Counted from the stretch's first letter, positions 10,318 through 23,864 are shown. The stretch: DNA of 64,000 bases from Candidatus Omnitrophota bacterium (GCA_030649895.1 JAUSEX010000040.1:16839-80838), one strand, 5' to 3'. The notes: generated by a model from the sequence alone, not told the origin. A program made the numbers and translations.

Positions 10318-10383
10318 GTTCTTGAAATCATGTTAGTTTGATGTTAAAAGTAAAAAGTAATCGGCTCCCAATATACCACGCCC

Positions 10384-10412
10384 TTGACGATATCGCAATC
10401 ATAGGATATACT
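10384..10412 (+). promoter_or_regulatory. Sigma70-type promoter, TTGACG-N17-TATACT
   Basis: Near-consensus hexamers with a 17-nt spacer, about 140 nt upstream of the membrane-protein gene; the leader contains imperfect inverted repeats. Confidence 0.45.
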
Positions 10413-10550
10413 TTATCTTTTAGAAAATGAAGCTCAATCCTGTCAGGTTGAAACCAGGGATTTTTTGGGCGAAATACAAAGTCCTGAGCTTGTCGAAGGA
10501 CTGAGCCTGCTATTTTTCTGTGGCGGGCGAATGTAGAAAGGGGGGCATAT

Positions 10551-11225
10551 ATGGACTGGAACTTAATTGTAGTTGATCCAGTAAAAGCTATGTTGGTGAG
10601 GGCGGCCACATTTCTACCTACTTTAATAGGTATAATCGTTATACTTATAGTAGGGTGGATTGTAGCAGCGGTCCTGAGAAATGTAGTTGTAAAATTATTG
10701 AAGGTAGTACAGTTTGACGCTGCTAGCGAAAAATCAGGGCTAGCCGATGTCTTAAGAAAGGGAGGCATAAAGAATACTTTTTCGGAATTGATAGGCGGAC
10801 TTGTCTATTGGGTAATAATGCTTTTAGTTTTTATGGCGTCTCTGAATGCGCTTGGTATGACAGTTGTAGCGTCTTTACTGGACAAGGTTATACTTTATAT
10901 ACCGAATGTTATAGCGGCTATTTTTATAATTTCTCTTGGTATATTTTTCGCAAGCACTATAGGCTCCATTGTGATGACCGCTTGCATGAACGCCGGAATG
11001 AAACAGGCAAAGTTAATGAGCCAGGTAACGCAGACTGTAATAGTGATATTTGTGGCGATTATGACGCTAGAGCAGCTGAATATAGCTACCACGATATTGA
11101 ATACAACTATTACGGTAGTGTTAGGAGCCGTAGGATTGGCGTTTGCGCTTGCAGTAGGGCTTGGTTCAAAAGATATTGCCGGGAAGCTTATGCATGATTT
11201 AGTGGAAAAATTGAAAATTAAATAA
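10551..11225 (+). CDS. Polytopic inner-membrane protein (TM-helix repeat type, possibly mechanosensitive-channel related)
   Basis: 224 aa with about 5 predicted TM helices, repeated hydrophobic modules and a K-rich C-terminus; no catalytic motif recognised. Confidence 0.4.
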   Translation: MDWNLIVVDPVKAMLVRAATFLPTLIGIIVILIVGWIVAAVLRNVVVKLLKVVQFDAASEKSGLADVLRKGGIKNTFSELIGGLVYWVIMLLVFMASLNALGMTVVASLLDKVILYIPNVIAAIFIISLGIFFASTIGSIVMTACMNAGMKQAKLMSQVTQTVIVIFVAIMTLEQLNIATTILNTTITVVLGAVGLAFALAVGLGSKDIAGKLMHDLVEKLKIK

Positions 11226-11249
11226 TGTCTTCAAATTAAAGGTTTACAG

Positions 11250-11284
11250 CCCCGCATTCCCGAAAAGGGATGCGGGGTTTTTTA
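11250..11284 (+). terminator. Rho-independent terminator
   Basis: CCCCGCATTCCCG-AAAA-GGGATGCGGGG followed by TTTTTT. Confidence 0.75.
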
Positions 11285-11300
11285 ATGAGCCTGCCTGAAA

Positions 11301-11333
11301 GTGGGCATATCTACTTGCAAATATAGCAAGTAG
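11301..11333 (+). promoter_or_regulatory. Promoter TTGCAA-N17-TATAAT overlapped by the inverted repeat CTACTTGC-N7-GCAAGTAG (candidate operator)
   Basis: The hexamers and spacing are seen directly. The 8-bp perfect IR spans the -35 and spacer. ATG of the GspK-like gene lies 21 nt downstream with no clear SD. Confidence 0.5.
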
Positions 11334-11353
11334 TTTGTATAATAAAATACAAT

Positions 11354-14300
11354 ATGAATAGCGCGAGAGAAGAAAAAGGCATTGCGTTGATACTTGTGGT
11401 AAGCGTCCTGGCTGTCGCAAGCATAATGGCGATATCTTTTGCATTTACCATGAGGCTGGAATTGAAAGCCGCAGCCAATTATCTGGAAGCTACAAGGGCG
11501 TCTTATCTCGCGCAGTCAGGCATCACGTACGCGCAGCAGATTCTAAAAGAAGACTCGAGGGATATAGATAGCTTCGAAGACAAATGGCACACTATCTTTA
11601 CAGGCAGCGATATTGATAACGATGGAGACGGCCAGCCTGATTCAAAATGGATAAATATTTACAATGAGGAAAGCGAGGCCATAGGCAGGTATGCTGTCCT
11701 GGTGAGGGATGAAACCAGTTTTATGGATATAAATATAGCTTATAAGCACAATCTTTCGCTTTTAAAGGTTACGGAAGGCTGGACTCCATATGAGCTGGAC
11801 CTGCAAAAATTTATAAATTCTTCAGGCTTGAAAGATCCAGATAAGGTGTACGAAGATATCGTTAGTTTTAGGTATGGGTCTGATGGCCAGCCGGGCGAGA
11901 TGGGCGCGGACGATAACCAGAATCAAAGGATCCTGGATTCCGATGGCATCGATAATAACTCGAACGGCATCATAGATGAAGCGAGCGAAGGCGTGGATGA
12001 GCCGATGGAATACGAACCGTTTAATCTTCACGGGGACGACAAAGCATTCGAAACGCCTTTCGAAATAAGTAAAATTAAATCGATCGCAAAACAGGAGCTT
12101 TATAAATTGTATCCCTATATAACTACGTATTCGGTTGATAAGAATATAGATGTTCAGGGAAGGTTGAAGGATAATATTAATTCCATGGATAGCCAGACTC
12201 TTGCTGTATTGTTGGAAGACGCCGGCGTAAGCGACCCGTTTCAAAAAGCAGTTAATATTATAGACGCTTGTGACGATGATTTCAGCCAGAGTACCGTACC
12301 AAAATTATACAACAGGCTCGCAGTGATCAATAGAGGCGATACAGGAGACTGGATATGGAAAGGCAGCTGCTATCAGAGCGACGTAAAAGATGGGCAACCT
12401 TTTACGATTACCTGGATCAATCTTCCGGAAGGAGAATATTACATAGGCGTGTTTGGGATAAAAAATGAATTAGTGGGAGATGTTACTGTAAACGGCATGA
12501 CCCAGAATTATGTGAGGGATGGCGAGCTGCTGAGGATAGGGGCTGTCTCGTTTGAGAATAAAATCTTAAATCTTTCCATAAATAACAGCGCAGGGTCGGT
12601 TTGTTATTTTTCTTATCTTGAATTATATCCCAGGCTGGGCCAGCAGAATTTCAACTCGAGCGAGATAAGAGGCGTTGAAGGCATAAGGATAAATGAAATA
12701 ATGGTAAGGCCTGTTATTTCCAGAAGCACTTTTAGCAACCAGGCACCTGGCGGAGACTGGACATGGCAAAATGCATACTATCAGAATAGTCAGCCAAAGG
12801 GCGGAAAAACCGGGGAAGGCGAATGGACCTGGAAGGATGTTCCCAATGGCAAATATTACGCCAGGTTATTTGCGGGCGTAGCCGATCAGGAGATAGGAAA
12901 TGTTGAAATAGGGGGCGTTCATTCGGAAGGGATGAGAGACGGAGATTTGTTTGGCAGCGGAAAAGTTGTTACTGTCTCAGGCGGGAAATTTACTATTAGG
13001 ATTCAGAATCAAAGAGAAACAGGATCTACGTATTTTAAATCTGTAGATTTGAGCCAGCAACCTGACGGAGAATATATAGAGCTTATAAATCTCACTCCCA
13101 GGGACGTGAATCTGAGCGGCTGGACCGTAGAAGGCCCGAGCAAAGAAGGCTGGCCTGCTACTATCCCTCTTGGTACGACAATAGGCCCTCACGAGCACAT
13201 TGCGCTGGCTATTGATAAAGACGATACACAGTCAGGGATAAATAATAACGGTATTTCATTTACATCGATATGGGGTAAAGAAAAATCCACAACTTTGCAT
13301 TTTTTAAGGGTGATAAGCCCTAATTCCGATCTTCTGTCTGACGTTGCTTTTATGGGAGGGAATTTTATAGCGCTTAAAGAACCCATGGGCCATGTCGTGG
13401 ATAAGCAGGAATATTTTAGCGGCAATGCAGCTGATTATAAGGCATTGGAGAAATCAGACCCTAGCTATGTATTGGATTCAAATAATAACGGCATACCTGA
13501 CAACTGGTATGCGTCTACCGCGAAAAAAGGAGCGACGCCCGGCCTGCCTAATGATAATGACGGGATGAGAGAGAAGATAGGAGAAGAGATAATAGAGCAT
13601 TACGATACCGAGGTGAACGCAAAGAACAAGAATTTTTCTTCGATAGGAGAGATTTCATTTGTTTCGCTTGGAACTGAACCATGGAAGAGCATAGCTCCGC
13701 AGGATGTCGCGAAGATTGCGGACAGGCTTACCGTATTCGGGATAAAACTGGAAGCGGAAAATAAAATCGTGAAAGGTTCCGAAGGAAACTGGAAAGTTGT
13801 GCAGAGGGCAGCTCCCTTGACAGACTGGTGCGAAAATGGAAAAGAGGATTCGATCGGCATGTGGAGATGGGAGGCGAAGGATGGCTTGGAAAACGGCTAT
13901 TATAAATTGAAAATATTCGGGGAAGAAGGCGAGGCAATAGCCATATCAATACATCTCGCGGACGATACATGGACGAGTTTTACGCCGGCCCTCACCCCTG
14001 GGCCTGACAAAGGAATAAATTTTGGTAATATAGAAATAGGCACTGGTAGTTCTATAGCTACGCCGAGCGGGGTCCTGGAAATAAAAATAAAGAACAGTTC
14101 GGAGACAGGCGCCGCTCACTTTGATTTTATAAGCTTGGACCCAGTAAATAACCTATACGGCAGGATAAATGTAAATACAGCCTCTAAAAGAGTTTTAGCT
14201 ATTCTACCAGGTATAGATGACGCCATAGCGGATAATATAATTAATAACAGGGTTTTTGGGAATAAAAATAGCCTTTATCTTGGCATAGGCGATCTTATCA

Positions 14301-14470
14301 CCACCCAGGCGTTAGGCTCAACTGATGTGGATAAGAAAAATAGGTTCAGGCAGATTTCGAATCTTATCACAGTCCATTCCGATTGTTATAGGATTATTGT
14401 CACGGGCCAGGCTCTTGAAAAAGGGAAGGTCCTGGCTGAAAAGAAGATCTGGGTGGTGTTTGAGCGTTAA
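11354..14470 (+). CDS. Giant GspK/PilX-like minor pseudopilin with adhesin-like inserts
   Basis: N-terminus GIALILVVSVLAVASIMAISFAF...RLELKAAANYLEATRASYLAQSGI and C-terminus INVNTASKRVLAILPGIDDAIADNII (HhH pair) match the T2SS GspK family. Between them about 800 aa contain DxDxDG Ca-binding-like loops (DIDNDGDGQPD, DSDGIDNNSNG), three GDW(I/T)W...GEYY beta-sandwich-like repeats (nt ~12336-13980) and a lamin-tail-domain-like segment EYIELINLTPRDVNLSGWTVEG (nt ~13069-13230). Confidence 0.6.
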   Translation: MNSAREEKGIALILVVSVLAVASIMAISFAFTMRLELKAAANYLEATRASYLAQSGITYAQQILKEDSRDIDSFEDKWHTIFTGSDIDNDGDGQPDSKWINIYNEESEAIGRYAVLVRDETSFMDINIAYKHNLSLLKVTEGWTPYELDLQKFINSSGLKDPDKVYEDIVSFRYGSDGQPGEMGADDNQNQRILDSDGIDNNSNGIIDEASEGVDEPMEYEPFNLHGDDKAFETPFEISKIKSIAKQELYKLYPYITTYSVDKNIDVQGRLKDNINSMDSQTLAVLLEDAGVSDPFQKAVNIIDACDDDFSQSTVPKLYNRLAVINRGDTGDWIWKGSCYQSDVKDGQPFTITWINLPEGEYYIGVFGIKNELVGDVTVNGMTQNYVRDGELLRIGAVSFENKILNLSINNSAGSVCYFSYLELYPRLGQQNFNSSEIRGVEGIRINEIMVRPVISRSTFSNQAPGGDWTWQNAYYQNSQPKGGKTGEGEWTWKDVPNGKYYARLFAGVADQEIGNVEIGGVHSEGMRDGDLFGSGKVVTVSGGKFTIRIQNQRETGSTYFKSVDLSQQPDGEYIELINLTPRDVNLSGWTVEGPSKEGWPATIPLGTTIGPHEHIALAIDKDDTQSGINNNGISFTSIWGKEKSTTLHFLRVISPNSDLLSDVAFMGGNFIALKEPMGHVVDKQEYFSGNAADYKALEKSDPSYVLDSNNNGIPDNWYASTAKKGATPGLPNDNDGMREKIGEEIIEHYDTEVNAKNKNFSSIGEISFVSLGTEPWKSIAPQDVAKIADRLTVFGIKLEAENKIVKGSEGNWKVVQRAAPLTDWCENGKEDSIGMWRWEAKDGLENGYYKLKIFGEEGEAIAISIHLADDTWTSFTPALTPGPDKGINFGNIEIGTGSSIATPSGVLEIKIKNSSETGAAHFDFISLDPVNNLYGRINVNTASKRVLAILPGIDDAIADNIINNRVFGNKNSLYLGIGDLITTQALGSTDVDKKNRFRQISNLITVHSDCYRIIVTGQALEKGKVLAEKKIWVVFER

Positions 14471-14500
14471 GTAACCGGAAAACTCATAATGTTGATTTGG

Positions 14501-14580
14501 AAAATAGGGAAAATAGGGACAGCGCCCATTTATTATTTATTTTTTATAGCATAAAAATGGGCGCTGTCCCTATTTTAGGA
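14501..14580. repeat. Family B palindromic repeat (copy 1 of 2), also terminator-like
   Basis: AAATAGGGACAGCGCCCATTT - 23 nt AT-rich loop - AAATGGGCGCTGTCCCTATTT, preceded by a GAAAATAGGG duplication; near-identical copy at 56262-56337. Confidence 0.7.
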
Positions 14581-14681
14581 GCTGGCTATTATGTAATGGG
14601 TTGCCTAGCTATTCAAATAGTGCAAGATTGCTCAAGATTATGCTTGATTTTTTTTGCTGACAGGATATAATTAATTTAAAT

Positions 14682-16493
14682 ATGCATAGGATTGAATATA
14701 ATAAAAAATATTTTATTCCAAAGACCGTTTTATTTTTTACAGCGGTCTTTTTTATTTTAGCGGTTGGGATCGCGGCTGCGAGCATAGCTAGCAGTAAAAA
14801 TTATAAATTGCATACAGCCCTGGCAGACGGCGGAGGGGCAAGCGGGGTTTCAAAGAATTACAACTCGGAGAATAGCGTGGGTTACCCGTTAGGCACCAAT
14901 GTTGCTACGGGCGTCAGTTATAAAATATACGGCGGATGGCTTTCCACCAGAAACACCATTCCTGACGTAGGCATATTAACATATAACGATGGCCAGGCTA
15001 CATTTGAAAATCCTCTTACATTGAAATGGGCGGTTACAGATAAAGACAATGATCCTCAGCGTTACTATCAGGTCCAGATCTCTAAAGACAGTTTTGAAAC
15101 AATAGATTTTGATTCAGGTATTGTTAAGACCAATTCCCAGCAATACACCACGCCTATATTGCCCACCACCGAAGGCTATGTAGACTATAAGTGGCGCGTG
15201 AGGGTAAGCGATGGATATGATTATTCAGGATGGGAAACAGCCAGTAGCGGGTTTAAGCTCGCAACGGGAACAATGGATCTGCCTATTATATTGGCTAAGA
15301 CTTCGCCTGGTGGAAGCGATATCCCGTCAAAATTATGGCAGGGATGCGGAGATCCATACATGTCATGGGAATACCCTGTAAAAGGCGTTCAACCTGCTGG
15401 TTACAGTTATGCGTGGGGAGATATGCCGGATAACCAGGCTGATACTCAGGGCACTTCTTACCAGACCCCTTCCGATCTTTTGGGGGATGGCGTCAGGGTG
15501 TTTAATCTTAAGGCTGAGAATTCAGCGGGTAATTGGGGTGAAATAGCTTCTTATGAATTATGGATAGATAGAGGCAGCCCTGTTATAGGTAATTATTCTC
15601 CGGAAAAAGGTTCGCTAATAGCGTCCGATAGGCCTACTATTACCATAGCTGCCAGCGATGATAAAAGCGGTGTGGATCCAAACGCTATTAATATGAAGAT
15701 AAATAAATCCACAGTAGGCGCTGCATATGATGAGAATAGCCAGAGCATTGTATATCTTCCATCTACGCCTCTCAGCGAAGGCAGTAATGTAGTGTCTATT
15801 GAAGTGGCTGACCTTGTGGGCAATAAAACATCCCAGGTTGTCTGGAGTTTTACTGTTGACACAAGGGGCCCGACAGGTTATGTGATAATAAATAACCAGG
15901 ATGCTGTTACTAATTCCGTATATGTCAACCTTGTATTTGGCGCCAGCGACTCTACGACAGATGTGGCAGATATGGTAATCTCGAACGACGGGGTTTTTGA
16001 CAATGAGCAATGGGAGCAGTTTAAAACCAAGAAGGAAAACTGGACGCTGACTCCTATAAGCGGTACCCGCAAGGTTTATGTAAAGTTTAAGGACACGGCA
16101 GGAAATGAATCAGAGGTTTTTAGCGATACGATAGAACTTATAATAATAGCGCCCGATACCATAATCACAAGCGGGCCGAGTTTGTTGACAAAGTCGAAAG
16201 AGGCCCTGTTTACTTTTAAAAGCAGCGTAGAGAATTGTGTATTTAGATGGAAATTTGATGATGATGAATGGTCTGCCTGGTCCAAGGATATTGCCGTATC
16301 CAAAAAAGACCTGAAAAACGGGAATCATTATTTCAAGGTTCAGGCTGCAAAAGATGTTAATAAGAATTCCAAAATAGACATAGACGAAATAGACCCTGTT
16401 CCTGCGGAAAGAACCTGGACCATAAGCGAAACAGGGGTTATAAAGCCGGAACCTGAGAAAAAGAAGCCTTTCAAATTTTGGAAAGAAGAATAA
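14682..16493 (+). CDS. Membrane-anchored surface protein with tandem Ig-like/FN3-like domains
   Basis: N-terminal TM (VLFFTAVFFILAVGIAAASIA) followed by several beta-sandwich segments typical of bacterial Ig-like domains (e.g. ITIAASDDKSGVD...VVSIEVADLVGN...); lies between the GspK-like gene and the pil genes. Confidence 0.5.
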   Translation: MHRIEYNKKYFIPKTVLFFTAVFFILAVGIAAASIASSKNYKLHTALADGGGASGVSKNYNSENSVGYPLGTNVATGVSYKIYGGWLSTRNTIPDVGILTYNDGQATFENPLTLKWAVTDKDNDPQRYYQVQISKDSFETIDFDSGIVKTNSQQYTTPILPTTEGYVDYKWRVRVSDGYDYSGWETASSGFKLATGTMDLPIILAKTSPGGSDIPSKLWQGCGDPYMSWEYPVKGVQPAGYSYAWGDMPDNQADTQGTSYQTPSDLLGDGVRVFNLKAENSAGNWGEIASYELWIDRGSPVIGNYSPEKGSLIASDRPTITIAASDDKSGVDPNAINMKINKSTVGAAYDENSQSIVYLPSTPLSEGSNVVSIEVADLVGNKTSQVVWSFTVDTRGPTGYVIINNQDAVTNSVYVNLVFGASDSTTDVADMVISNDGVFDNEQWEQFKTKKENWTLTPISGTRKVYVKFKDTAGNESEVFSDTIELIIIAPDTIITSGPSLLTKSKEALFTFKSSVENCVFRWKFDDDEWSAWSKDIAVSKKDLKNGNHYFKVQAAKDVNKNSKIDIDEIDPVPAERTWTISETGVIKPEPEKKKPFKFWKEE

Positions 16494-16525
16494 TCTAACC
16501 TGTTTATTTTCAAGTAGTTACCTTC

Positions 16526-16556: not shown

Positions 16557-16566
16557 AGTGCTACCC

Positions 16567-16595: not shown

Positions 16596-16744
16596 TATAC
16601 CACTCTATATCAAATAGAGATAAGATATTGTTCTATTTTTACAGGTTGGGCAAGACAATAAGATTTTGAAGGCCGAATTAACAAAAAGTTCGGCCTGAGT
16701 CGTCTAAGGGGCTAAACATGTTATTGAATAGTGAGGTGGTATAT

Positions 16745-16930
16745 ATGAAAGAAAAATATTATTCCGCAGAAACTGCGGCGCAGTTTCTTGGCATATCTAA
16801 GCAGACTCTTATAAGATATGAAAACAAGAGATTGTTTCCAGCGGCCAGAAGAAATACCCTTAATGGCTGGCGGGAATACACGGAAGACGATATTAAAAAA
16901 CTCAGGGCTATAATGGGAAGGACCAGGTAA
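16745..16930 (+). CDS. MerR-family HTH transcriptional regulator (short)
   Basis: YSAETAAQFLGISKQTLIRYENKRLFPAARR-NGWREYTEDDIKKL is a MerR-type HTH. GAGGTGG SD 6 nt before the ATG at 16745 (the ORF-track start at 16718 is less likely). Its stop abuts the pilM start. Confidence 0.6.
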   Translation: MKEKYYSAETAAQFLGISKQTLIRYENKRLFPAARRNTLNGWREYTEDDIKKLRAIMGRTR

Positions 16931-18457
16931 ATGGCCAAGTTCAAGGCAAGTTCAATAGCCTTAGATATAGGCGCTCATTTTATAAAGCTTGTTGAGCTTA
17001 AAAAAGAGAAGGATAGTATTGTGCTGACCAAAATCGGCTTAAAAGAAATCCCGAGAGATTTGAAGCTCGACAGGGATAAAACTATCAGTTCGCTTATCTC
17101 CGCATTATTATTGGAGAATCATATAAAGCCGAATCCTGTAAACATATCTATAAGCGGCCAGTCTGTTTTTGTAAGATTCGTAAAGTTGTTGCAGGTAAAA
17201 GAGGATAAATTAAAACAGACTATGAAATTTGAAGCGCAAAACCAGATACCTTTCAGCATGAATGAGGTCATGTGGGACTGGTCTCTGCTGGATAACGACA
17301 AAAATTCATCCAGAAAGGCAGTCATAGTTGCGATAAAAAAAAATCTGGTAGAAGAGATTATTTCAAAACTCAATTCCGTTAAATTATCTGCCGGGTTGAT
17401 AGATGTGGCTCCTATAAGCGTGTATAACTGTATGATATTTAACGAAGACTTTAATGTCCAGGGGTTGGGAGCCATACTTGACATAGGCGCGAAATCCACC
17501 AATTTCATTATATTTAATAAAGGTAATATATGGATAAGAAGTTTTCCTATAGCTGGAGAGAGGATCGAGGAGGCTAAAGAGCATGGCGTAGAGGAGCTTC
17601 TGGCAGAGGTGGAGAGATCCCTGGAGTATTATTTTATGCAGGCAGGAGAAGACGCCCCGCAGGAAAAAAAGATAACCCAGCTTTTCCTGACAGGCGGCGG
17701 AAGCGTTATGGAAAATATAGAAGCATCGCTTGTTTCTAAATTTAGCGTAAAACCTCAGATTATGGATCCTTTTAGAAAATTAAGGGTATCTAAAGATGTA
17801 TATCAAAAACTCCAGGTATGCGGACCTAAGAATCAATTTTCTACGGTTGTGGGCGTGGCGCTGAGGGGCATGACTGGTCTGAAGATAGAGGTAAATTTTC
17901 TGAAAGAAATAGCTTTGGAAAAGAAATCCTCGTTCCGGAAACGTTTTTATGCTGGCCTTTCAATGGCCACAGGCGCGCTGGTGCTTATAAGCTTTTCCAT
18001 TTTTATGCGCCAGGATTACTATATAAAAAAGATCAAGCTTGATAAAGCGGAAGACATGATAGGGATATACAGGACCTATGAGCCGAAGATAAAGAATATA
18101 CAGGAAGAGGAAAATATTTTAAGAGGGGAAATAGATACCTTATATCAAACAGCCTTTTCCAGGGCTATATGGCTCGGGATATTTAAGGCTATTTCAGAGA
18201 TACTCCCCAAGGATGTCTGGGTTACGGATTTATCGGGAATCATCTCTATAGAAAAGAGCGGGCTTGGGAGAATGGATATGAACGGGAAAGCTCTGTCTTA
18301 TCAATCAGTTAATAATTTCGTGTCGAGCCTTAAGGCGTTGCCGAGCTTTAGCGATGTGCGGCCTGTATCGTCTTCCGTGGAAAACGACAAAGATACAGGG
18401 GAAGAAATAGTTAAATTCAGCATCACCATGGATGTTGTTTTATTGACGAATCAGTAG
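16931..18457 (+). CDS. pilMN: Type IV pilus assembly protein PilM-PilN fusion
   Basis: N-terminal actin-like ATPase fold of PilM (ALDIGAHFIKLVELKK...), a central TM helix (AGLSMATGALVLISFSIFM), then a PilN-like periplasmic region; 508 aa. Confidence 0.6.
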   Translation: MAKFKASSIALDIGAHFIKLVELKKEKDSIVLTKIGLKEIPRDLKLDRDKTISSLISALLLENHIKPNPVNISISGQSVFVRFVKLLQVKEDKLKQTMKFEAQNQIPFSMNEVMWDWSLLDNDKNSSRKAVIVAIKKNLVEEIISKLNSVKLSAGLIDVAPISVYNCMIFNEDFNVQGLGAILDIGAKSTNFIIFNKGNIWIRSFPIAGERIEEAKEHGVEELLAEVERSLEYYFMQAGEDAPQEKKITQLFLTGGGSVMENIEASLVSKFSVKPQIMDPFRKLRVSKDVYQKLQVCGPKNQFSTVVGVALRGMTGLKIEVNFLKEIALEKKSSFRKRFYAGLSMATGALVLISFSIFMRQDYYIKKIKLDKAEDMIGIYRTYEPKIKNIQEEENILRGEIDTLYQTAFSRAIWLGIFKAISEILPKDVWVTDLSGIISIEKSGLGRMDMNGKALSYQSVNNFVSSLKALPSFSDVRPVSSSVENDKDTGEEIVKFSITMDVVLLTNQ

Positions 18458-18497: not shown

Positions 18498-19259
18498 ATG
18501 TTAAAACCCGGCAGAGAAAAAATTATTCTGAAACAGGGGCTTATAATACTTGCTGTTTTGGCGGGTATTTATATATTTTTCCTTAGCCCGTTTCTTAAGG
18601 AAGGCCGCTCAATAATGGACGAAGAGCTGGAGCGAAAGATAAGCGAAATGAAAAGATTTATTACGCTTACCGGGACAGTGCCTTCAAAGGAAAGCTTTAC
18701 CAGGATGGAGAAGGACAGAGAGTCCCTGGAAGAAAAATTTTCCAGCCTGGTGAATTTTATAGATCCGAATAAGGCGAGGTTTTCTGAAAAAAATACGGAG
18801 GCAGGGCTTTATTTTATAGAAAAACTTCATTCTACGATGAAAAAATTCGAAATAGACGCAGGGTCCAAAACCGTGAAGCTTCCAGAGAACCTTGGTTTTG
18901 GGGATGGCCTTCCAAAGGACGCCATAGTGCCTGTGCTTCTGAGGCAGCTTGAGATAGTGGAGTTTACCGTAGACGCGCTTTTAAAAAGCAATAGCTCGGA
19001 TATTTATAATCTGAAACCGCTTAAGCCTATTGAATACATAGAGCCTATTTCAAAGAAACTTTTTTATACTGAACTGCCTATCCAGATTTCCATAAAAACA
19101 ACAACTGACGCGTTTACGAATCTTTTGCTGGAGCTTAAGAACGCCAGCCCAGTAATCAACGTAAAAGAATTGCATGTTAAGAGCGTCGAACCTGGTTCAG
19201 GAGAATTGGAGATAAGCCTGGTATTAAGCAGCCTTATGGTCACGAGGAAAGAGAAATGA
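18498..19259 (+). CDS. pilO: PilO/GspM-like pilus assembly protein
   Basis: Single N-terminal TM, coiled coil, then a ferredoxin-like periplasmic region; placement after pilMN. Confidence 0.45.
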   Translation: MLKPGREKIILKQGLIILAVLAGIYIFFLSPFLKEGRSIMDEELERKISEMKRFITLTGTVPSKESFTRMEKDRESLEEKFSSLVNFIDPNKARFSEKNTEAGLYFIEKLHSTMKKFEIDAGSKTVKLPENLGFGDGLPKDAIVPVLLRQLEIVEFTVDALLKSNSSDIYNLKPLKPIEYIEPISKKLFYTELPIQISIKTTTDAFTNLLLELKNASPVINVKELHVKSVEPGSGELEISLVLSSLMVTRKEK

Positions 19260-19864
19260 TTATAAAGGAAAAAATTATATTCCTGGCTCTTTTACCTGTG
19301 TTAGTAGCCACCATAGCGATAGGCATCAATACGCAGGAAAATAAAAAGAGATCAACGGACGAGTTTCTAAAGGATATTGAATCCGTGACAGAAAAGGCCA
19401 AGGCCAAAAAAAAGGTGGCCAAGGATAGTTGGGATATTGACGGGTTGAAGAAGCAGGAAACAATGGAGGATTATCTGGCCCTTGCGGAAAGAAATATCTT
19501 CTTCAGGCCTGTTTCTGAAGTCAGAAAGGAAATCCAGAGGGATATCGTGTCTTTAAAGGAAGAAGAGCCGAAGAAACCTTTGTTTGTCTATAAAGGCAGG
19601 ATGACGATGGGGGCCAGGATTATAGTTATTATAGAGGATCAGAATACAAGCAAAAGTTTCTCCGTTAAAGAAGGGGATTCAGCGGGCGATTTTACAGTCG
19701 TCAGCATAGGCGAAAAAGAAATATTGCTCAGGAAAAACGACGGAGAAGAAATTATTATTTCTACTGTCAAGGAAGAGAAAAAAGAAGAAAGGAAAGATGC
19801 TGAGGGTGGTCGTGATCGCTCCATGCAGACAGATTGGTCAGAGGGCATAGATGAAAAGAAATAA
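19256..19864 (+). CDS. pilP: PilP-like lipoprotein/pilotin-type component
   Basis: N-terminal TM/signal, a low-complexity linker and a C-terminal beta domain (GDSAGDFTVVSIGEKEILLRKNDGEEIII) resembling PilP; overlaps both neighbours. Confidence 0.4.
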   Translation: MIIKEKIIFLALLPVLVATIAIGINTQENKKRSTDEFLKDIESVTEKAKAKKKVAKDSWDIDGLKKQETMEDYLALAERNIFFRPVSEVRKEIQRDIVSLKEEEPKKPLFVYKGRMTMGARIIVIIEDQNTSKSFSVKEGDSAGDFTVVSIGEKEILLRKNDGEEIIISTVKEEKKEERKDAEGGRDRSMQTDWSEGIDEKK

Positions 19865-22346
19865 GGGATTCTACTGTGTATCATTTATAATGGCTGTATT
19901 CATGGCGCTGGAGTGCCTGCCTTCCGTGGTTTTTGCGTCAGTGGACCCTTCTCTCTCAAGGACTGTTGTTGCGTCAAAGGTCAACCTTAGGAAATATTTT
20001 GAAGAGGCTATGTCCATGTTTGAATCAGGCAAATACAGGGAAGCTATTATGATATTTGAGAAATTGATTGAAACAGAGAAAGATGATAACCAATCGTATT
20101 TTACGCCTTTCGCGGAGATTTATATTGAAAAATCCAAAGCCCGCATGACAGAGTTGATGATCATGGAAGAAAAGAAATGGGAAAAGATGAAAAAAGACGT
20201 GGTGGGAGAGGCAGAGGCCCTGGCCAGGAAAGAAAGCGATAGGATCGTTCAGGAAGAGCAAGAAAAGAAAAGGGCGCTATTGGATTCAAGGAAAAAAGAA
20301 GTGTATGAAAAAGAGCAGAATATAAAGTCTACGTTTGACAAGGCAGTGGCATTTTACAAGTCCAAGGATTATCCTTTCAGTATAGTGGAGTTCAAGAAGG
20401 TAAAAGAGATGGATCCCGGCAGTCTGCTTGCCAGCCAGGCAGATTCTTATATACGCAATATGCAGCAGGAAATAAAGAAAAATCAGGAGAAGGTGCTTCT
20501 TGTGAAGATGGAAGAGGCAAGGCGCGCCAAGCTGGACATGGAAAGGGAAGCAGAACTCAATAGAGTAGAGCTGGCCAGAAAAGAAAAACAAAAAGAGGCG
20601 CTCAGGATGATGTTTGAGCGCAGGTTAAAGATCAAAGAAGCCAGGGACAGAGTGGCCAAGCTGGCGGATTCGATGGACAGCATAATAGGCAATATCAGGG
20701 AAAAAAGATTTGACGCGGCAGAGGCCCTGGTGGATAACGCAATGCAGGAATTTCCTGAAAATGAAAAATTTAAAGAGATATTGCATTATATAGATATGCA
20801 GAAACTGAAAGCCGAAGAGATTGCACTGAAGAAAGCCCGGGAGCTGACAGAAGAAAGGATGATGCTGGATGTTGCGAGAAAACATATACTGCCGGAAGAA
20901 AAAACAGCTAAGCTGGAAAACGAAAAAAAAATAAAGCCTATCATAAAAATCCCTGAGATAAGGAAGCGGTTAAAAATACCCATAAGCGTTGATTTTAAAG
21001 ACGTGGAGCTGGATTATGTTCTGGGTTTCCTGTCGGATACGACAGGTGTGAACATAGTGCCTTCAACGGAAATAGATATGGCTGATAAAAAAGTGAGCAT
21101 GAGGATAAAAGACATGCCTCTCGAAGAGGCGTTGAGGTATATATTGAAATCCCAGGACCTGGTTTACAGGATAGAAGAAGACGCTGTATGGGTGGCTACA
21201 AAGGATGAGATCTCTAACGAAAAGATAGACACGAGGGTATATTTTTTAAGCCAGGGCATAGGCAGATTTGCTGAGTTCGCGACCCAGTCTTCATCAATCG
21301 GGGAGACGGGAGAGAGCAAATCCAGCCCCGCTGCCTCTTCAGAAGTAAAGACTGTTAAAGATATCCTGGATAATGCGGTTGAATGGCCTAAGGACTCAAA
21401 ATTGACGCTTGATGAACGCACCGGCGCGCTTATAATAAGCAACACGCCGTCAAACCTGGAAACCATAGAGAATCTTTTATATAATCTGGATATAACTCCC
21501 ATGCAGGTTTTGATTGAGGCCAGATTTTTGGAAGTCAAGGTGAGCGACCTGGACGATATAGGGGTTGAGTGGAAACTGAATGGCATATGGGCTATGGATA
21601 AAAACAGGGCTGGAAATGATGTATATGGGGTTAGCCAAAATAGCGGGGTGGATTTTTCGAATTTCAGCCGCTCAGACGAAGGGTTTAACCTTACGTATCA
21701 GGGCATATTGAGTAATCCGCAGTTTCAGGCAGCGATGCACGCGCTTCAGGAAAAGCAGAATGTAAAAACATTATCCGCGCCAAGGATAACCACTCTTAAC
21801 AATCAGACAGCCACGATAGAAATAGTTGACGAATATATATATCCTACGAGATATGAAGCGAGTCTTGTCCAGTACGACATAAACGGGGATGGGGATTTCA
21901 ATGACGCCGGAGAGACGGAATGGGTGAACGTGCCGCAAGATTTTGTGACGAGAAACGTGGGTATACTTTTGCATGTTAAACCAAGCGTGGGAGCGGACAA
22001 AAAGAGCATCACGCTTGCGTTAACCCCTGAAGTCAGCGAAGACGCTGGGACTTTCACGTATTCTGGAAATGTCAGTATACCTAATTTTACTACCAGGAAC
22101 CTGAGCACAAGCGTAATGGTTAAAGATGGCGAGACAATAGTGCTTGGCGGGCTTATAAAAGAGACGAATACAACTGTGAAGACAAAGGTTCCGGTGCTTG
22201 GCAATATACCTTTTGTAGGCGGATTATTCAGAAAGAACACTGATTCCAAAGAAAGAAGGAATCTTTTAATATTCGTTACCGCCACTATTACAAACAAAGA
22301 AGAGAATAAAGTCGCAAGCGTTGAGACCCTGGAAGAGGGTTTTTAA
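19851..22346 (+). CDS. pilQ: Secretin (PilQ/GspD family) with a ~400-aa N-terminal coiled-coil/TPR-like extension
   Basis: Signal peptide; long K/E-rich helical region; secretin N-domain (IPISVDFKDVELDYVLGFLSD...); C-terminal secretin core (VLIEARFLEVKVSDLDDIGVEW ... TIVLGGLIKE ... VPVLGNIPFVGGLFRK ... RNLLIFVTATI). Confidence 0.75.
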   Translation: MKRNKGFYCVSFIMAVFMALECLPSVVFASVDPSLSRTVVASKVNLRKYFEEAMSMFESGKYREAIMIFEKLIETEKDDNQSYFTPFAEIYIEKSKARMTELMIMEEKKWEKMKKDVVGEAEALARKESDRIVQEEQEKKRALLDSRKKEVYEKEQNIKSTFDKAVAFYKSKDYPFSIVEFKKVKEMDPGSLLASQADSYIRNMQQEIKKNQEKVLLVKMEEARRAKLDMEREAELNRVELARKEKQKEALRMMFERRLKIKEARDRVAKLADSMDSIIGNIREKRFDAAEALVDNAMQEFPENEKFKEILHYIDMQKLKAEEIALKKARELTEERMMLDVARKHILPEEKTAKLENEKKIKPIIKIPEIRKRLKIPISVDFKDVELDYVLGFLSDTTGVNIVPSTEIDMADKKVSMRIKDMPLEEALRYILKSQDLVYRIEEDAVWVATKDEISNEKIDTRVYFLSQGIGRFAEFATQSSSIGETGESKSSPAASSEVKTVKDILDNAVEWPKDSKLTLDERTGALIISNTPSNLETIENLLYNLDITPMQVLIEARFLEVKVSDLDDIGVEWKLNGIWAMDKNRAGNDVYGVSQNSGVDFSNFSRSDEGFNLTYQGILSNPQFQAAMHALQEKQNVKTLSAPRITTLNNQTATIEIVDEYIYPTRYEASLVQYDINGDGDFNDAGETEWVNVPQDFVTRNVGILLHVKPSVGADKKSITLALTPEVSEDAGTFTYSGNVSIPNFTTRNLSTSVMVKDGETIVLGGLIKETNTTVKTKVPVLGNIPFVGGLFRKNTDSKERRNLLIFVTATITNKEENKVASVETLEEGF

Positions 22347-22355: not shown

Positions 22356-23864
22356 ATGGCCATGAATTTTATGATACGTATATTGTTATGCATAGTCTTA
22401 TTTTTAAGCCCCGGAGCTTGTTTTGCTTATGAGATGAAGTCTGTCAAGGGAGACAGCAGCGTCACCAGCGATAAGTCTAGCATTGTAGAAATCCCTGAGA
22501 TAAGAAAAAAGCTCAAGACGCCAATAACAGTGGACTTTATGGATGTGGGCCTTGACTATGTCATGGATTTTTTATCAGAGGCCACAGACGTTAATATAAT
22601 ACCAGGCAGCGGGGTAAAGCTTTCAGAAAAAAAGGTTACCATGAAGGTTAAAGATATGCCTCTGGAGAGCCTTTTGAAATATATATTCAGAAATCAGGGG
22701 CTTATATACAGGATTGAGAAAAATGCCGTATGGGTGGATACGATAGATAACATGGATAATGAAACTTCTGAGACCAGGATGTATTTTTTGGATCAGGGCC
22801 TTGCCATGTTCACGGAATTCAGCGGCGGCTCAGGCGAAGGAGGCGCTGCTATATCAAAAATAAAAACCATAAAGGACATACTTGAAAATGCGGTAGTATG
22901 GCCTTCTGATTCTAAGATCAACCTGGATGAACGCACCAGCGCTTTGATAGTGACAAATACGCCGTCCAATCTTAAGATTATAGAAGACATATTATATAAT
23001 CTGGATATCGATGCTACTCAGATCCTGGTGGAAGCGAGATTTGTTGAGGTAAACATCACTGACCTCAGCGAGTTAGGGGTGAATCTATCGTTGGACGGCC
23101 CGTGGGCCATAAATAAACAAGAAGTCAGCGGCACTGAAAATGGCGCGATTACTCAGGTAGGCTCGTCAAGCGGTTCAAGATTTTCAACATTTACAGGTTC
23201 GCCGGACGAAGGGCTGAACCTTACATATCAAGGTATATTGACAAGGCCGCAGTTTTCCGTAGTGCTGCACGCGCTTGATAAAAAGACAAATATAAAAACG
23301 CTTTCCGCTCCAAAAATAACTACATTGAATAATCAGACCGCTACCATAGAGATAGCCGATGAGTTTGTGTATCCTACGCGATATGAGCCGACCCTTGTAA
23401 AAGAGGATTTGAACGGAGACGAAGATTTTCTGGATACTGTAAATGGCGTCAAAGAGACTCGTTTTGTGAACGTGCCCCAGGGTTTTCAAACAAGGCCTAT
23501 CGGGATTTTATTGCATGTAACCCCGAGCGCTGGCAAAGATAAGGAGACGATAACATTAACCCTTAACCCTGAAGTCAGCGAGGCTACAGCCGATGCATTT
23601 CAATATAGCGGAGAAGTTAAGCTACCTAAATTTACCACCAGGAACCTCAGCACTAATATAGCTGTGCAAAACGGGGATACCGTGGTCCTGGGAGGGCTCA
23701 TAAAAGAATCAAGGACAAACACAAGGACAAAGGTGCCTTTTTTAGGGGACATACCTATATTGGGCATGCTTTTTAAGAAGGATTCGGACGGCACGACAAG
23801 AAAAAATCTTTTGATATTTGTCACAGCTACTATCTTGAGCCCGGAAGGAGAGAAGTTAAAATGA
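22356..23864 (+). CDS. Second secretin paralog (PilQ/GspD family), no N-terminal extension
   Basis: Signal peptide and secretin N-domain alignable with the first secretin (IPEIRKKLKTPITVDFMDVGLDYVMDFLSE vs IPEIRKRLKIPISVDFKDVELDYVLGFLSD), then the secretin core (ILVEARFVEVNITDLSELGV ... VVLGGLIKE ... VPFLGDIPILGMLFKK). Confidence 0.75.
   Translation: MAMNFMIRILLCIVLFLSPGACFAYEMKSVKGDSSVTSDKSSIVEIPEIRKKLKTPITVDFMDVGLDYVMDFLSEATDVNIIPGSGVKLSEKKVTMKVKDMPLESLLKYIFRNQGLIYRIEKNAVWVDTIDNMDNETSETRMYFLDQGLAMFTEFSGGSGEGGAAISKIKTIKDILENAVVWPSDSKINLDERTSALIVTNTPSNLKIIEDILYNLDIDATQILVEARFVEVNITDLSELGVNLSLDGPWAINKQEVSGTENGAITQVGSSSGSRFSTFTGSPDEGLNLTYQGILTRPQFSVVLHALDKKTNIKTLSAPKITTLNNQTATIEIADEFVYPTRYEPTLVKEDLNGDEDFLDTVNGVKETRFVNVPQGFQTRPIGILLHVTPSAGKDKETITLTLNPEVSEATADAFQYSGEVKLPKFTTRNLSTNIAVQNGDTVVLGGLIKESRTNTRTKVPFLGDIPILGMLFKKDSDGTTRKNLLIFVTATILSPEGEKLK

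What the first reader, a model, noticed from the sequence alone, without database searches (positions are those of the whole stretch)
11354..14470. 1038-aa GspK-like minor pseudopilin bearing adhesin-type inserts (Ca-binding loops, triple beta-sandwich repeat, lamin-tail domain)
Canonical GspK/PilX-type minor pseudopilins are about 300-350 aa. This protein keeps the GspK N-terminal hydrophobic segment and the C-terminal ININTAS-type HhH pair, but inserts about 700 aa containing DxDxDG motifs (DIDNDGDGQPD, DSDGIDNNSNG), three internal repeats with the pattern GDW(I/T)W ... P(E/N)G(E/K)YY ... (nt 12336-13980) and an LTD-like block EYIELINLTPRDVNLSGWTVEG. In bacteria LTD domains are typically found on extracellular nucleases and DNA- or surface-binding proteins. 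A tip-located pseudopilin with binding domains would make this a pilus-tip adhesin, possibly for prey or host or DNA attachment. It is co-localised with an Ig-domain surface protein and the pil genes.
Basis: partly seen in the sequence, partly recalled or inferred. Interest (0 to 1): 0.75.

Follow-up and report, generated by a model that had tools for sequence, protein, structure and literature searches.

The report
Oversized pilus-tip protein with binding domains
This gene from an uncultured Omnitrophota bacterium encodes a GspK-type pilus-tip subunit three times the usual size, with four extra beta-sandwich domains that probably let the filament tip bind a target; it is a new layout of a known design, with no tested function.

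Summary
ORF 11354-14470 (+) encodes a 1038-aa protein, 100% identical to an NCBI Omnitrophota MAG protein auto-named "lamin tail domain-containing protein".

**GspK identity**
- The AlphaFold2 model is confident (pLDDT 91, pTM 0.87).
- The N-terminus is a pilin-type signal with Leu, not Glu, at +5, the mark of the apical subunit.
- In relatives the gene directly follows GspJ-type prepilin genes.

**Inserted block**
- About 620 aa (aa 312-932) sit inside the helical alpha-domain.
- One jelly roll is nested inside the lamin-tail domain.
- At sequence level the jelly-roll domain is confined to this family.

- At least one of the three calcium-type loops (aa 195-221) aligns with GspK's own acidic motif rather than being a graft.
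- The protein is very acidic (pI 4.7), which argues against DNA binding.
- The window holds no major pilin, ATPase, platform protein or prepilin peptidase.

A tip binding head is the best reading, but it is inferred. This is a new variant of the known "modular minor pilin" kind.

The parts
11248..11279 (+). Intrinsic-terminator-like hairpin ending the upstream MscS-like gene
   Evidence: 13-bp stem with 8 GC pairs, followed by a T run.
11315..11343 (+). Promoter-like site (TTGCAA-17-TATAAT) just upstream of the ATG
   Evidence: 10 of 12 consensus matches. This is a consensus match only. The -10 hexamer ends 10 nt before the start codon.
11354..14470 (+). Gene for the 1038-aa GspK-family modular minor pilin
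   Evidence: 100% identical to P0001, an NCBI Omnitrophota MAG protein. AF2 model pLDDT 91, pTM 0.87.
11354..11551 (+). Pilin-type signal (…EEKG|IALILVV…) and long N-terminal alpha1 helix, aa 1-66; Leu, not Glu, at +5
   Evidence: NCBIfam GspK profile positions 1-76 match aa 7-78. The model has a helix at aa 5-66. Gly9 is present in 61 of 70 members and Leu14 in 61 of 70.
11552..11713 (+). First strands of the pilin beta-sheet, with DxDxDG loop 1 (aa 86-96)
   Evidence: Strands at aa 83-119. The loop columns are conserved family-wide. The loop is a gap relative to E. coli K-12 GspK.
11714..12286 (+). Helical alpha-domain, first part (aa 121-311), with the acidic calcium-type loops at aa 173-221 and HhH/SAM-like units
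   Evidence: Helices at aa 150-306. hhalign to K-12 GspK covers residues 1-246 of GspK in its best register. D186, D187, D197, D200, N201, D208, E212 and E219 are conserved in at least 90% of members.
12287..12673 (+). Jelly-roll repeat R1 (aa 312-440)
   Evidence: hhalign R1-R2 E=7e-35. All-beta in the model. Present only in the roughly 1035-aa Omnitrophota members.
12674..12712 (+). Lamin-tail domain strand A (GVEGIRINEIMVRP, aa 440-453), split from the rest of the LTD
   Evidence: G440, E442 and E448 are invariant. Joining this strand to aa 570-705 raises the LTD score from 36.2 to 46.4 bits and moves the profile start from position 16 to 7.
12713..13063 (+). Jelly-roll repeat R2 (aa 454-570), nested inside the LTD
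   Evidence: Absent in P0095 and P0091, where the LTD is contiguous.
13064..13453 (+). Lamin-tail domain, strands B onward (aa 571-700)
13454..13738 (+). Connecting segment (aa 701-795) with a third DxNxNG-type loop (aa 708-716) and short helices; possibly a GspK alpha-domain HhH unit
   Evidence: Its assignment to a canonical GspK element is ambiguous.
13739..14149 (+). Jelly-roll repeat R3 (aa 796-932)
   Evidence: hhalign to R1 E=2e-12 and to R2 E=5e-13. Present in all members except the GspK+LTD-only forms.
14150..14368 (+). Last HhH/SAM-like unit of the GspK alpha-domain (RINVNTAS…, aa 933-1005)
   Evidence: Pfam HHH_3 27.4 bits and T2SSK 23.2 bits. The family profile matches PDB GspK 5vtm_X here.
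14369..14467 (+). C-terminal beta-hairpin (aa 1006-1038) that completes the pilin sheet in cis
   Evidence: Strands at aa 1011-1022 and 1025-1037. R1038 is nearly invariant. GspK supplies this strand in cis (PMC13533445).
14682..16493 (+). 603-aa membrane-anchored Ig-domain (Big_13) protein, a conserved downstream partner
   Evidence: Pfam Big_13 41.4 bits. An ortholog sits directly downstream in L003, L004, L006 and L007.
16718..16930 (+). 70-aa MerR/HTH_17-type regulator ORF
   Evidence: A 68-aa equivalent sits at the same place in L003.
16931..18457 (+). PilM-PilN fusion (GspL-like assembly-platform protein)
   Evidence: Pfam PilM_2 110.9 bits and PilN 40.1 bits. NCBIfam Amuc_1101 family E=5e-68, below cut-off.
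18498..19259 (+). PilO/GspM-like protein
   Evidence: Weak T2SSM_b and PilO hits. GspM and Amuc_1100 families, below cut-off.
19256..19864 (+). GspC/PilP-like protein (weak assignment)
   Evidence: NCBIfam GspC_delta E=1.6e-5, below cut-off. No Pfam hit.
19851..22346 (+). Secretin, 831 aa, with an N-terminal TPR extension
   Evidence: Pfam Secretin 143 bits, STN and Secretin_N.
22356..23864 (+). Second, paralogous secretin, 502 aa
   Evidence: NCBIfam secretin families. 57% identical to the first secretin over 468 aa.

Best explanation
The gene encodes the apical minor pilin (GspK/PilK/PilX class) of a type IV filament machine in an Omnitrophota bacterium. A four-domain binding head has been built into that pilin.

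Shown:
- The protein has the GspK fold: pilin module, helical alpha-domain and a C-terminal beta-hairpin.
- It has a pilin-type N-terminus without Glu at +5.
- It heads an operon with a PilM-N fusion, PilO/GspM-like and GspC-like proteins and two secretins.
- In relatives it sits directly after GspJ-type prepilin genes.
- About 620 aa inside the alpha-domain form a lamin-tail Ig-like domain and three homologous, family-specific jelly rolls with a CBM6/35/36-like fold. One jelly roll is nested in the lamin-tail domain.

Inferred mechanism:
1. After membrane insertion and cleavage after Gly9, the protein joins GspI- and GspJ-like minor pilins, encoded elsewhere in this genome, to prime filament assembly. 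It therefore ends up at the very tip.
2. The alpha-domain caps the tip, so the inserted head points away from the cell.
3. Conserved acidic loops probably stabilise the head with calcium.
4. The head most likely binds a surface ligand, such as envelope glycans or matrix of a partner or host cell. In this role it would stand in for a PilY1-type adhesin.

I put the GspK-family identity at about 0.9 and the adhesin function at about 0.5.
For: Fold:
- The model is confident: pLDDT 91, pTM 0.87.

Sequence:
- NCBIfam GspK E=1.2e-17 at the N-terminus. T2SSK and HHH_3 match at aa 937-981.
- Gly at -1 and Leu at +5 are each present in 61 of 70 members. PilK homologs invariably lack Glu+5 and are apical (PMC13533445).

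Synteny:
- L001 and L004 carry T2SSF, a small prepilin and T2SSJ immediately before this gene, then PilMN, PilO and a secretin (a clear Secretin-domain protein in L001; in L004 a 739-aa gene with only weak secretin similarity).
- One to five G|F(T/S)LxE prepilin genes lie upstream in L002, L008, L011, L014 and L019-21.

Head:
- Repeats E=7e-35 to 2e-12.
- Nesting shown by in-silico excision, +10 bits.

Modular build-up across relatives: GspK+LTD only, then +R2+R3, then +R1.

Precedent:
- Modular pilins carry lectin or vWA modules (PMC8179133).
- PilK homologs in systems without PilY1 carry large insertions: ComZ, V. cholerae and CpaL, the last with an adhesin domain.
- No PilY1 was seen in the window or in the flanks of the four relative loci that carried Pfam annotation.
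- Omnitrophota are mostly ultra-small and predicted to be host-dependent, with type IV pili proposed for attachment (PMC10066038).
Against: - No ligand or binding site has been identified. The CBM-like fold is a generic jelly roll, and no CBM profile matches at sequence level.
- The curated GspK cut-offs are not reached: 64 against 130 bits (NCBIfam) and 23.2 against 24.2 bits (Pfam).
- The window has no major pilin, GspE/PilB/PilT, GspF/PilC, prepilin peptidase or other prepilin. Whether the filament leaves the cell is therefore unknown.
- The PilM-N fusion, GspM-like, GspC-like and GspJ/GspK set looks as much like a T2SS, whose endopilus stays periplasmic.
- The head domains are not notably more variable than the pilin core: mean pairwise identity 0.47-0.57 against 0.57-0.67. 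There is no clear sign of receptor-driven diversification.
- Calcium binding is supported only at motif level.
- Tip geometry comes from a monomer model plus published GspK structures, not from a modelled complex.
Confidence: 0.5

Rival explanations
1. T2SS endopilus tip. The machine is a type II secretion system. The enlarged GspK stays in the periplasm or secretin vestibule, and its head docks cargo or gates the unusual double secretin. The cargo could be a very large exoprotein such as the 2535-aa ORF 2 kb upstream.
For: - The component set is T2SS-like: GspK, plus GspJ and T2SSF in relatives; a PilM-N fusion, which is the GspL architecture; and GspM-like and GspC-like hits.
- Sources already name family members GspK or PulK.
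- Two tandem secretins are present.
- Omnitrophota giant proteins are reported to be flanked by T2SS/T4P genes in 13 of 14 cases (bioRxiv 10.64898/2026.06.07.730766). A 2535-aa ORF lies at 1829-9436.
Against: - No known T2SS GspK carries binding modules.
- The secretins score best against the Amuc_1098 'type IV pilus' family and about equally against GspD and PilQ, all below cut-off.
- Published analysis classifies these Omnitrophota loci as T4aP (PMC10066038).
- A head of about 70 kDa built from lectin-like and Ig-like domains is more typical of surface exposure.
Confidence: 0.25
2. DNA receptor of a competence-type pilus. The HhH units, with or without the LTD, capture extracellular DNA at the filament tip, as ComZ does in Thermus.
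For: - HHH_3/ComEA-type matches at aa 937-993.
- LTDs occur on extracellular nucleases such as ExeM.
- ComZ-type PilK homologs with large inserts bind DNA.
Against: - The HhH/SAM-like units are native to every GspK, and no DNA-binding role for them in GspK emerged from the papers read here.
- The protein has pI 4.7 and net charge -50. The LTD family median is -12.5 and the HhH unit is about 0.
- The ExeM LTD is dispensable for extracellular DNA degradation in vivo, and its role is unresolved.
- No comEC, comEA or dprA gene lies next to the locus.
Confidence: 0.1
3. Not a filament subunit. This would be a GspK-derived, membrane-anchored envelope protein whose pilin module is a relic and which acts independently of pilus assembly.
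For: - In this genome's clade the gene is detached from gspI, gspJ and gspF. It follows an MscS-like gene behind its own terminator and promoter-like site.
- The curated GspK cut-offs are not met.
Against: - The pilin module, Gly -1, the hydrophobic alpha1 helix and the C-terminal hairpin are the best-conserved parts: identity 0.61-0.67.
- The gene is still co-oriented with pilMN, pilO and the secretins in all four loci of the clade that extend far enough.
- More distant relatives keep it directly behind prepilin genes.
Confidence: 0.05

Closest known systems
T2SS minor pseudopilin GspK / XcpX (PDB 3CI0, 5VTM)
   Same: - No Glu at +5.
- An acidic calcium-type motif is present.
- In relatives the gene lies directly after gspJ.
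   Different: - Three times longer (1038 against 327 aa).
- About 620 aa of LTD plus three jelly rolls are inserted in the alpha-domain.
- Extra DxDxDG loops.
- Below the curated family cut-offs.
- Partnered with a PilM-N fusion and two secretins rather than GspL and a single GspD.
Modular minor pilins (S. sanguinis PilB with a vWA module and PilC with a lectin module; ETEC CofB)
   Same: A functional binding module is carried on a pilin module for display on the filament. Carbohydrate-binding modules are common among the 264 recorded architectures (PMC8179133).
   Different: - There the module is fused C-terminally through a linker. Here it is inserted inside the alpha-domain, and one domain is nested in another.
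- The carrier is a GspK-type pilin without a recognisable N_methyl motif, so that survey would not have captured it.
PilK-family proteins with large insertions in systems lacking PilY1 (Thermus ComZ, V. cholerae PilX, Caulobacter Tad CpaL)
   Same: An apical minor pilin with a large insert, proposed to combine the priming and adhesin roles, with the C-terminal strand donated in cis (PMC13533445).
   Different: - Those inserts lie between the sheet and the donor strand and have other folds: a beta-solenoid in ComZ and an adhesin domain in CpaL.
- None has an LTD or CBM-like repeats.
PilC/PilY1 tip adhesins
   Same: A large tip-located binding protein of similar size (about 1000 aa), calcium-dependent, needed with the minor pilins to start the filament.
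   Different: PilY1 is not a pilin. It has a beta-propeller and docks by donating a strand to PilK in trans. Here the adhesin-like part and PilK are one polypeptide, and there is no propeller.
Verru_Chthon cassette protein A (TIGR02600)
   Same: A large (about 1300 aa) GspK-like protein of PVC-group bacteria, encoded with prepilin-type proteins. The N-terminal 63 aa match (E=8e-7).
   Different: Only the N-terminal helix matches: 27 bits against a cut-off of 332. It is not a member.
CBM6 / CBM35 / CBM36 carbohydrate-binding modules
   Different: - No sequence-profile match.
- The repeat family is found only in these GspK-like proteins.
- Ligand-site residues were not assessed.
Bacterial LTD-bearing exoproteins (for example Shewanella ExeM)
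   Same: A secreted or envelope protein with a Pfam LTD.
   Different: No nuclease or hydrolase domain. The LTD is internal and is interrupted by another domain. The LTD's function is unresolved even in ExeM.

Membership tests
GspK / PilK / PilX class of apical minor pilins | Pilin-type (class III) N-terminus: short polar leader ending in Gly, then a hydrophobic alpha1 helix | tested here: met
   MNSAREEKG|IALILVVSVLAV. Gly9 is present in 61 of 70 members. The model has a helix at aa 5-66.
GspK / PilK / PilX class of apical minor pilins | No Glu at position +5 of the mature protein | tested here: met
   Position +5 is Leu14, present in 61 of 70 members. The criterion is from PMC13533445.
GspK / PilK / PilX class of apical minor pilins | GspK three-dimensional fold (pilin sheet plus inserted alpha-domain) | tested here: met
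   [not shown]
GspK / PilK / PilX class of apical minor pilins | C-terminal beta-strand completing the pilin sheet in cis | tested here: met
   The model has strands at aa 1011-1022 and 1025-1037. The C-terminal ...ER is conserved. This rests on the model only.
GspK / PilK / PilX class of apical minor pilins | Score above the curated family cut-offs (NCBIfam NF037980, Pfam PF03934) | tested here: not met
   64.4 bits against 130, and 23.2 bits against 24.2. Relatives pass PF03934: P0115 43.1 bits and P0124 29.8 bits. The shortfall fits a profile interrupted by a 620-aa insert.
GspK / PilK / PilX class of apical minor pilins | Encoded next to GspI- and GspJ-type minor pilins | tested here: inconclusive
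   Not in this window: there is no other prepilin ORF in 64 kb. It is the case in relatives L001, L004, L002, L008, L011 and L014.
GspK / PilK / PilX class of apical minor pilins | Forms the tip complex with GspI and GspJ and primes filament assembly | not testable with these tools
   Needs multimer modelling or experiment.
Lamin tail domain (Pfam PF00932) | Profile score above the gathering cut-off | tested here: met
   40.8 bits against 34.3 in the native protein. The score rises to 46.4 bits after in-silico removal of R2.
Lamin tail domain (Pfam PF00932) | Ig-like lamin-tail fold | tested here: met
   [not shown]
CBM6/35/36-type carbohydrate-binding modules | Beta-jelly-roll fold | tested here: met
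   [not shown]
CBM6/35/36-type carbohydrate-binding modules | Sequence membership in a CBM family | tested here: not met
   No CBM profile at E<=1. The repeat profile finds only this protein family among 1.84 billion representatives.
CBM6/35/36-type carbohydrate-binding modules | Carbohydrate binding and conserved ligand-site residues | not testable with these tools
A binding assay is needed.
Verru_Chthon cassette protein A (TIGR02600) | Full-length profile match above cut-off | tested here: not met
   27.3 bits against 332.3, covering aa 9-71 only.
ComEA-type HhH DNA-binding proteins | HhH repeat region match | tested here: inconclusive
   HHH_3 27.4 bits against 27. comE TIGR01259 14.9 bits against 152. 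The same motif belongs to the GspK alpha-domain (5vtm_X matches the same residues). The net charge argues against DNA binding.
Calcium-binding GspK sites | Conserved acidic loops coordinating Ca2+ | tested here: inconclusive
   DxDxDG-like motifs at aa 86, 200 and 708. The columns for the loops at aa 86-96 and 173-221 are almost invariant; the aa 708-716 loop is less conserved and is absent in about 20 of 70 members. The K-12 GspK acidic motif aligns to aa 197-221 in the best register. No calcium-domain profile hit. Metal binding was not tested.

The most novel reading that the evidence does not exclude
In these ultra-small, probably host-dependent bacteria the filament has no separate PilY1-type adhesin. 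Instead the priming pilin itself evolved into the host-recognition device. It became a calcium-stiffened array of three family-specific lectin-like jelly rolls plus a lamin-tail domain, built up stepwise by nested insertion and duplication: first GspK+LTD, then +R2+R3, then +R1. This head, possibly together with the conserved Ig-domain neighbour and a hetero-oligomeric double secretin, would decide which partner cells an Omnitrophota cell can attach to. That would make partner or host choice readable from sequence.
Probability: 0.3. Interest if true: 0.65.

Novelty: new variant of a known kind. Interest (0 to 1): 0.45.

Why it matters
Omnitrophota are abundant, uncultured and mostly ultra-small bacteria. 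Their predicted dependence on other cells has no known molecular basis. Type IV pili have been proposed as the attachment device, but no adhesin has been named.

This protein family is a concrete, testable candidate for that adhesin. It is conserved at about 1035 aa across many Omnitrophota, and simpler forms occur in Chlamydiota, Brocadiaceae, Aerophobetes and Ratteibacteria MAGs.

It also bears on type IV filament biology:
- It is a clear case of adhesin-like modules inserted into the GspK alpha-domain rather than fused to a pilin end.
- One domain is nested inside another.
- A graded series of relatives shows the order of acquisition.
- It fits the recent proposal that systems without PilY1 enlarge their PilK homolog.

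The three repeats define a domain family that has no Pfam model.

If the function turns out to be ordinary tip adhesion, the result is a useful annotation rather than a new principle.

Tried and rejected
1. I tried to reach the rest of the source contig (104.6 kb) to look for gspE, gspF, gspG, gspO and pilT. Exact-protein look-ups for two window proteins and for P0001 were not on record. The genome-contig scan returned only relatives at 78% identity or less.
2. Foldseek against afdb50 was unavailable.
3. The giant hits of the repeat profile (P0099, 4922 aa; P0113, 3747 aa) looked like a link to giant adhesins. I rejected this. They match only profile positions 21-63, a generic PxGxY hairpin shared with SpaA, CarboxypepD_reg and SdrD_B domains.
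4. Membership in Verru_Chthon cassette protein A was rejected. Larger GspK-like relatives are not members either.
5. I tried to map exactly which canonical GspK element each helical segment corresponds to. hhalign against E. coli K-12 GspK gives a 77-84% hit over the N-terminal half. There is also a second, low-probability register, because the HhH units repeat. I therefore state only that the insert lies within the alpha-domain, before the last HhH unit.
6. The family profile against PDB sequences found only the HhH unit. The fold search was needed to see GspK.
7. The weak hit of the Ig neighbour to the CPR pilus protein PamT (E=0.002, 17.7 bits against a cut-off of 240) is treated as noise.
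8. The DNA-receptor reading was considered and ranked low on charge and context.
9. Per-domain divergence gave no clear sign of a fast-evolving receptor-binding domain.
10. The literature searches found no paper describing a GspK with an LTD.

Full report

Yes. An ATG-initiated ORF runs from 11354 to 14470 on the + strand and encodes 1038 aa. A strong terminator-like hairpin (11248-11279) closes the upstream MscS-like gene. A TTGCAA-17-TATAAT site at 11315-11343 precedes the ATG, so the gene appears to open a transcription unit.

The protein is 100% identical to an NCBI protein from a Candidatus Omnitrophota MAG, auto-named "lamin tail domain-containing protein". About 50 full-length homologs of roughly 1035 aa (37-85% identity) come from Omnitrophota metagenomes. 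Some are auto-named GspK or PulK. It is therefore a real, conserved gene and not a chimera.

**2. The GspK frame**

- *Sequence.* The NCBIfam GspK model matches in two stretches (E=1.2e-17, best at aa 7-78) but scores 64 bits against a cut-off of 130. Pfam T2SSK matches aa 938-981 at 23.2 bits, just under its cut-off of 24.2. HHH_3 reaches its cut-off. Against PDB sequences the family profile finds only the HhH unit, including XcpX 5vtm_X.
- *N-terminus.* It reads EEKG|IALILVV. Gly at -1 and Leu at +5 are each present in 61 of 70 family members. Absence of Glu+5 is the hallmark of the apical PilK/GspK subunit (PMC13533445).
- *C-terminus.* The model ends in a beta-hairpin (aa 1011-1037). This corresponds to the strand that GspK supplies in cis.
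- *Size.* E. coli K-12 GspK is 327 aa.

**3. The inserted head**

Secondary structure and profile comparisons divide the protein as follows:

| Segment | Residues |
|---|---|
| alpha1 helix | 5-66 |
| Pilin strands | 83-119 |
| Helical alpha-domain, part 1 | 121-311 |
| Jelly roll R1 | 312-440 |
| LTD strand A | 441-453 |
| Jelly roll R2 | 454-570 |
| LTD strands B onward | 571-700 |
| Connecting segment | 701-795 |
| Jelly roll R3 | 796-932 |
| Last HhH unit | 933-1005 |
| C-terminal hairpin | 1006-1038 |

- *Repeats.* The three jelly rolls are homologous. R1-R2 gives E=7e-35, R1-R3 gives 2e-12 and R2-R3 gives 5e-13. None resembles the LTD.
The invariant stretch GVEGIRINEIMV (aa 440-451) is the LTD's first strand. 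When R2 is removed in silico and that strand is joined to aa 570-705, the LTD score rises from 36.2 to 46.4 bits and the match extends from profile position 16 back to 7. In relatives without R2 (P0095, Brocadiaceae) the LTD is contiguous and follows the T2SSK_1st region directly.
- *Position.* The whole 620-aa block lies inside the GspK alpha-domain, upstream of the last HhH unit.

**4. Calcium-type loops**

DxDxDG-like motifs lie at aa 86, 200 and 708. The columns of the loops at aa 86-96 and 173-221 are almost invariant across all 70 members, including distant ones. The aa 708-716 loop is less conserved and is missing in about 20 members. No calcium-binding profile matches, so this is motif-level evidence.

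The loops are not all grafts. GspK natively has two calcium sites and XcpX a third (PMC6211770). In the best hhalign register, the K-12 GspK acidic stretch DYIDVDDSPRFHGAEDSFY falls on aa 197-221. The aa 86-96 loop is an insertion relative to K-12 GspK.

**5. How the family was built**

Domain occupancy across the alignment gives a graded series:
- GspK+LTD only: P0095 and P0091, 776-808 aa.
- GspK+LTD with a K/E-rich helical insert at the R2 position: P0086-89.
- GspK+LTD+R2+R3: P0073-85, plus the Chlamydiae MAG protein P0090.
- The full R1+R2+R3 form: about 48 Omnitrophota members.

The LTD insertion is therefore old. The site between LTD strands A and B has been used at least twice. R1 is the latest duplication.

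A profile of the three repeats, searched against 1.84 billion representative proteins, found only 67 hits (23 at E<=1e-10). All eight full-domain hits checked with Pfam, apart from one 238-aa fragment with no Pfam hit at all, carry LTD, T2SSK or HHH_3, so they are members or fragments of this family. Two giant proteins matched only a generic hairpin motif. At sequence level the repeat is a family-specific domain without a Pfam model.

**6. Context**

In the window the gene is followed, on the same strand, by:
- a 603-aa membrane-anchored Big_13 Ig protein;
- a 70-aa MerR/HTH ORF;
- a PilM-PilN fusion;
- a PilO/GspM-like protein;
- a weak GspC-like protein;
- two paralogous secretins, 57% identical.

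Everything else in the 64 kb is housekeeping. No other ORF has a pilin-type N-terminus. There is no GspE/PilB/PilT, GspF/PilC, prepilin peptidase or PilY1.

Relatives fill the gap:
- In L001 and L004 the order is T2SSF, small prepilin, T2SSJ, this gene, (Ig protein), PilMN, PilO/Amuc_1100-like, then a secretin (clear in L001; in L004 the 739-aa gene at that position has only weak secretin similarity).
- In L002, L008, L011 and L014, two to five canonical G|F(T/S)LxE prepilin genes lie a short distance upstream.
- In the window's own clade (L003, L006, L007) the gene has been separated from them and follows an MscS-like gene.
- L003 carries a second cluster 10 kb upstream with T2SSE, T2SSF, T2SSG, two small prepilins, a 398-aa PilX_N protein, PilMN and PilO, but no secretin.

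The genome-contig scan also found relatives in Aerophobetes, Ratteibacteria and Hydrogenedentota MAGs. It found still larger GspK-like genes (1150-2130 aa) preceded by prepilin genes.

**7. Most likely mechanism**

*Shown:* a GspK-fold apical pilin with a four-domain beta-sandwich head, in a filament-assembly and secretin operon.

*Inferred:*
1. The protein is cleaved after Gly9.
2. It nucleates the tip complex with GspI- and GspJ-like pilins.
3. It stays at the tip.
4. The alpha-domain caps the tip in the solved GspIJK complexes, so the head points outward.

The CBM-like and Ig-like folds suggest binding of a surface ligand, most plausibly glycans of a partner cell envelope or matrix. The precedent of modular pilins carrying lectin or vWA modules points the same way (PMC8179133). 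So does the precedent of enlarged PilK homologs in systems without PilY1 (ComZ, CpaL; PMC13533445). This fits the proposed attachment role of type IV pili in host-dependent Omnitrophota (PMC10066038).

I put the identity at about 0.9 and the adhesin function at about 0.5.

**8. Rivals**

- *T2SS endopilus tip, about 0.25.* The head would dock cargo or gate the double secretin. The component set is T2SS-like. Omnitrophota giant proteins are reported next to T2SS/T4P genes, and a 2535-aa ORF lies 2 kb upstream.
- *DNA receptor, about 0.1.* This is weakened by the strongly acidic protein (pI 4.7, net -50, LTD family median -12.5). The HhH units are native to GspK. The ExeM LTD is dispensable for extracellular DNA degradation in vivo.
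- *Relic pilin no longer in a filament, about 0.05.* The pilin parts are the best conserved.

**9. Comparison with known families, and novelty**

The protein works like, and by fold belongs to, the GspK/PilK class, although it misses the curated sequence cut-offs. It is not a member of Verru_Chthon cassette protein A (27 against 332 bits). Its repeats share the CBM6/35 fold but belong to no CBM sequence family.

The general principle of a binding module displayed on a minor pilin is established. Databases already auto-label family members as LTD or GspK proteins. None of the literature searches or papers read mentions a GspK with an LTD.

I rate it a new variant of a known kind, with interest 0.45. 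It would be useful to pilus specialists and to those working on Omnitrophota lifestyle, but it is not surprising in principle.

**10. Limits**

- No coordinates were available for site mapping.
- No multimer modelling was possible.
- The source contig beyond the window could not be retrieved.
- afdb50 was unavailable.
- The mapping of individual helical segments onto canonical GspK is ambiguous because the HhH units repeat.

Noticed in passing
window 19851-22346 and 22356-23864: Two tandem paralogous secretin genes, 57% identical over 468 aa. The first has an extra N-terminal TPR region of about 360 aa. The pair is conserved in relatives L003 and L007. A hetero-oligomeric or alternative secretin would be unusual.
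   Followed up: partly
window 1829-9436: A 2535-aa ORF with no Pfam hit above cut-off (weak Phosphorylase and GGDEF matches only) lies 2 kb upstream of the operon. A 2026 preprint reports that 13 of 14 Omnitrophota giant proteins are flanked by T2SS/T4P genes.
   Followed up: no
window 14682-16493: The 603-aa Big_13 Ig-domain protein has an N-terminal membrane anchor. It is a conserved immediate downstream partner of the GspK-LTD gene in the window, L003, L004, L006 and L007. Its role is unknown. It has a weak sub-threshold hit to the CPR pilus protein PamT.
   Followed up: partly
window 16718-16930: A 70-aa MerR/HTH_17-type ORF sits between the Ig gene and pilMN. A 68-aa equivalent lies at the same position in L003, and HTH_17 genes also lie upstream of T2SSF in L001. 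It may be a dedicated regulator.
   Followed up: partly
L003 1-7716 versus 10001-22497: The 65%-identical relative has two adjacent half-systems. One has T2SSE, T2SSF, T2SSG, two small prepilins, a 398-aa PilX_N protein, PilMN and PilO, but no secretin. The other has GspK-LTD, Ig, PilMN, PilO, a GspC-like protein and two secretins, but no ATPase, platform protein or major pilin. They may share parts or give two alternative tips.
   Followed up: no
P0086-P0089 (for example L002 10001-12307): In these 727-768-aa relatives the same insertion point inside the LTD (between strands A and B) carries a K/E-rich helical segment instead of a jelly roll. The site looks like a recurrent insertion hot-spot.
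   Followed up: partly
window 11338-11356: The -10 hexamer of the promoter-like site ends 10 nt before the ATG, which leaves no room for a Shine-Dalgarno sequence. The mRNA may be leaderless or near-leaderless, or the real promoter may lie elsewhere.
   Followed up: no
L012 920-5407, L016 9911-13363, L019 9272-14542, L020 4578-10763, L021 8813-15202: Even larger GspK-like genes (1150-2130 aa) occur in other uncultured lineages, including a Hydrogenedentota MAG. In L019-L021 they directly follow canonical prepilin genes. None reaches the TIGR02600 cut-off.
   Followed up: partly
window 47008-48000: A 330-aa ORF between clpB and mlaE has no Pfam match.
   Followed up: no
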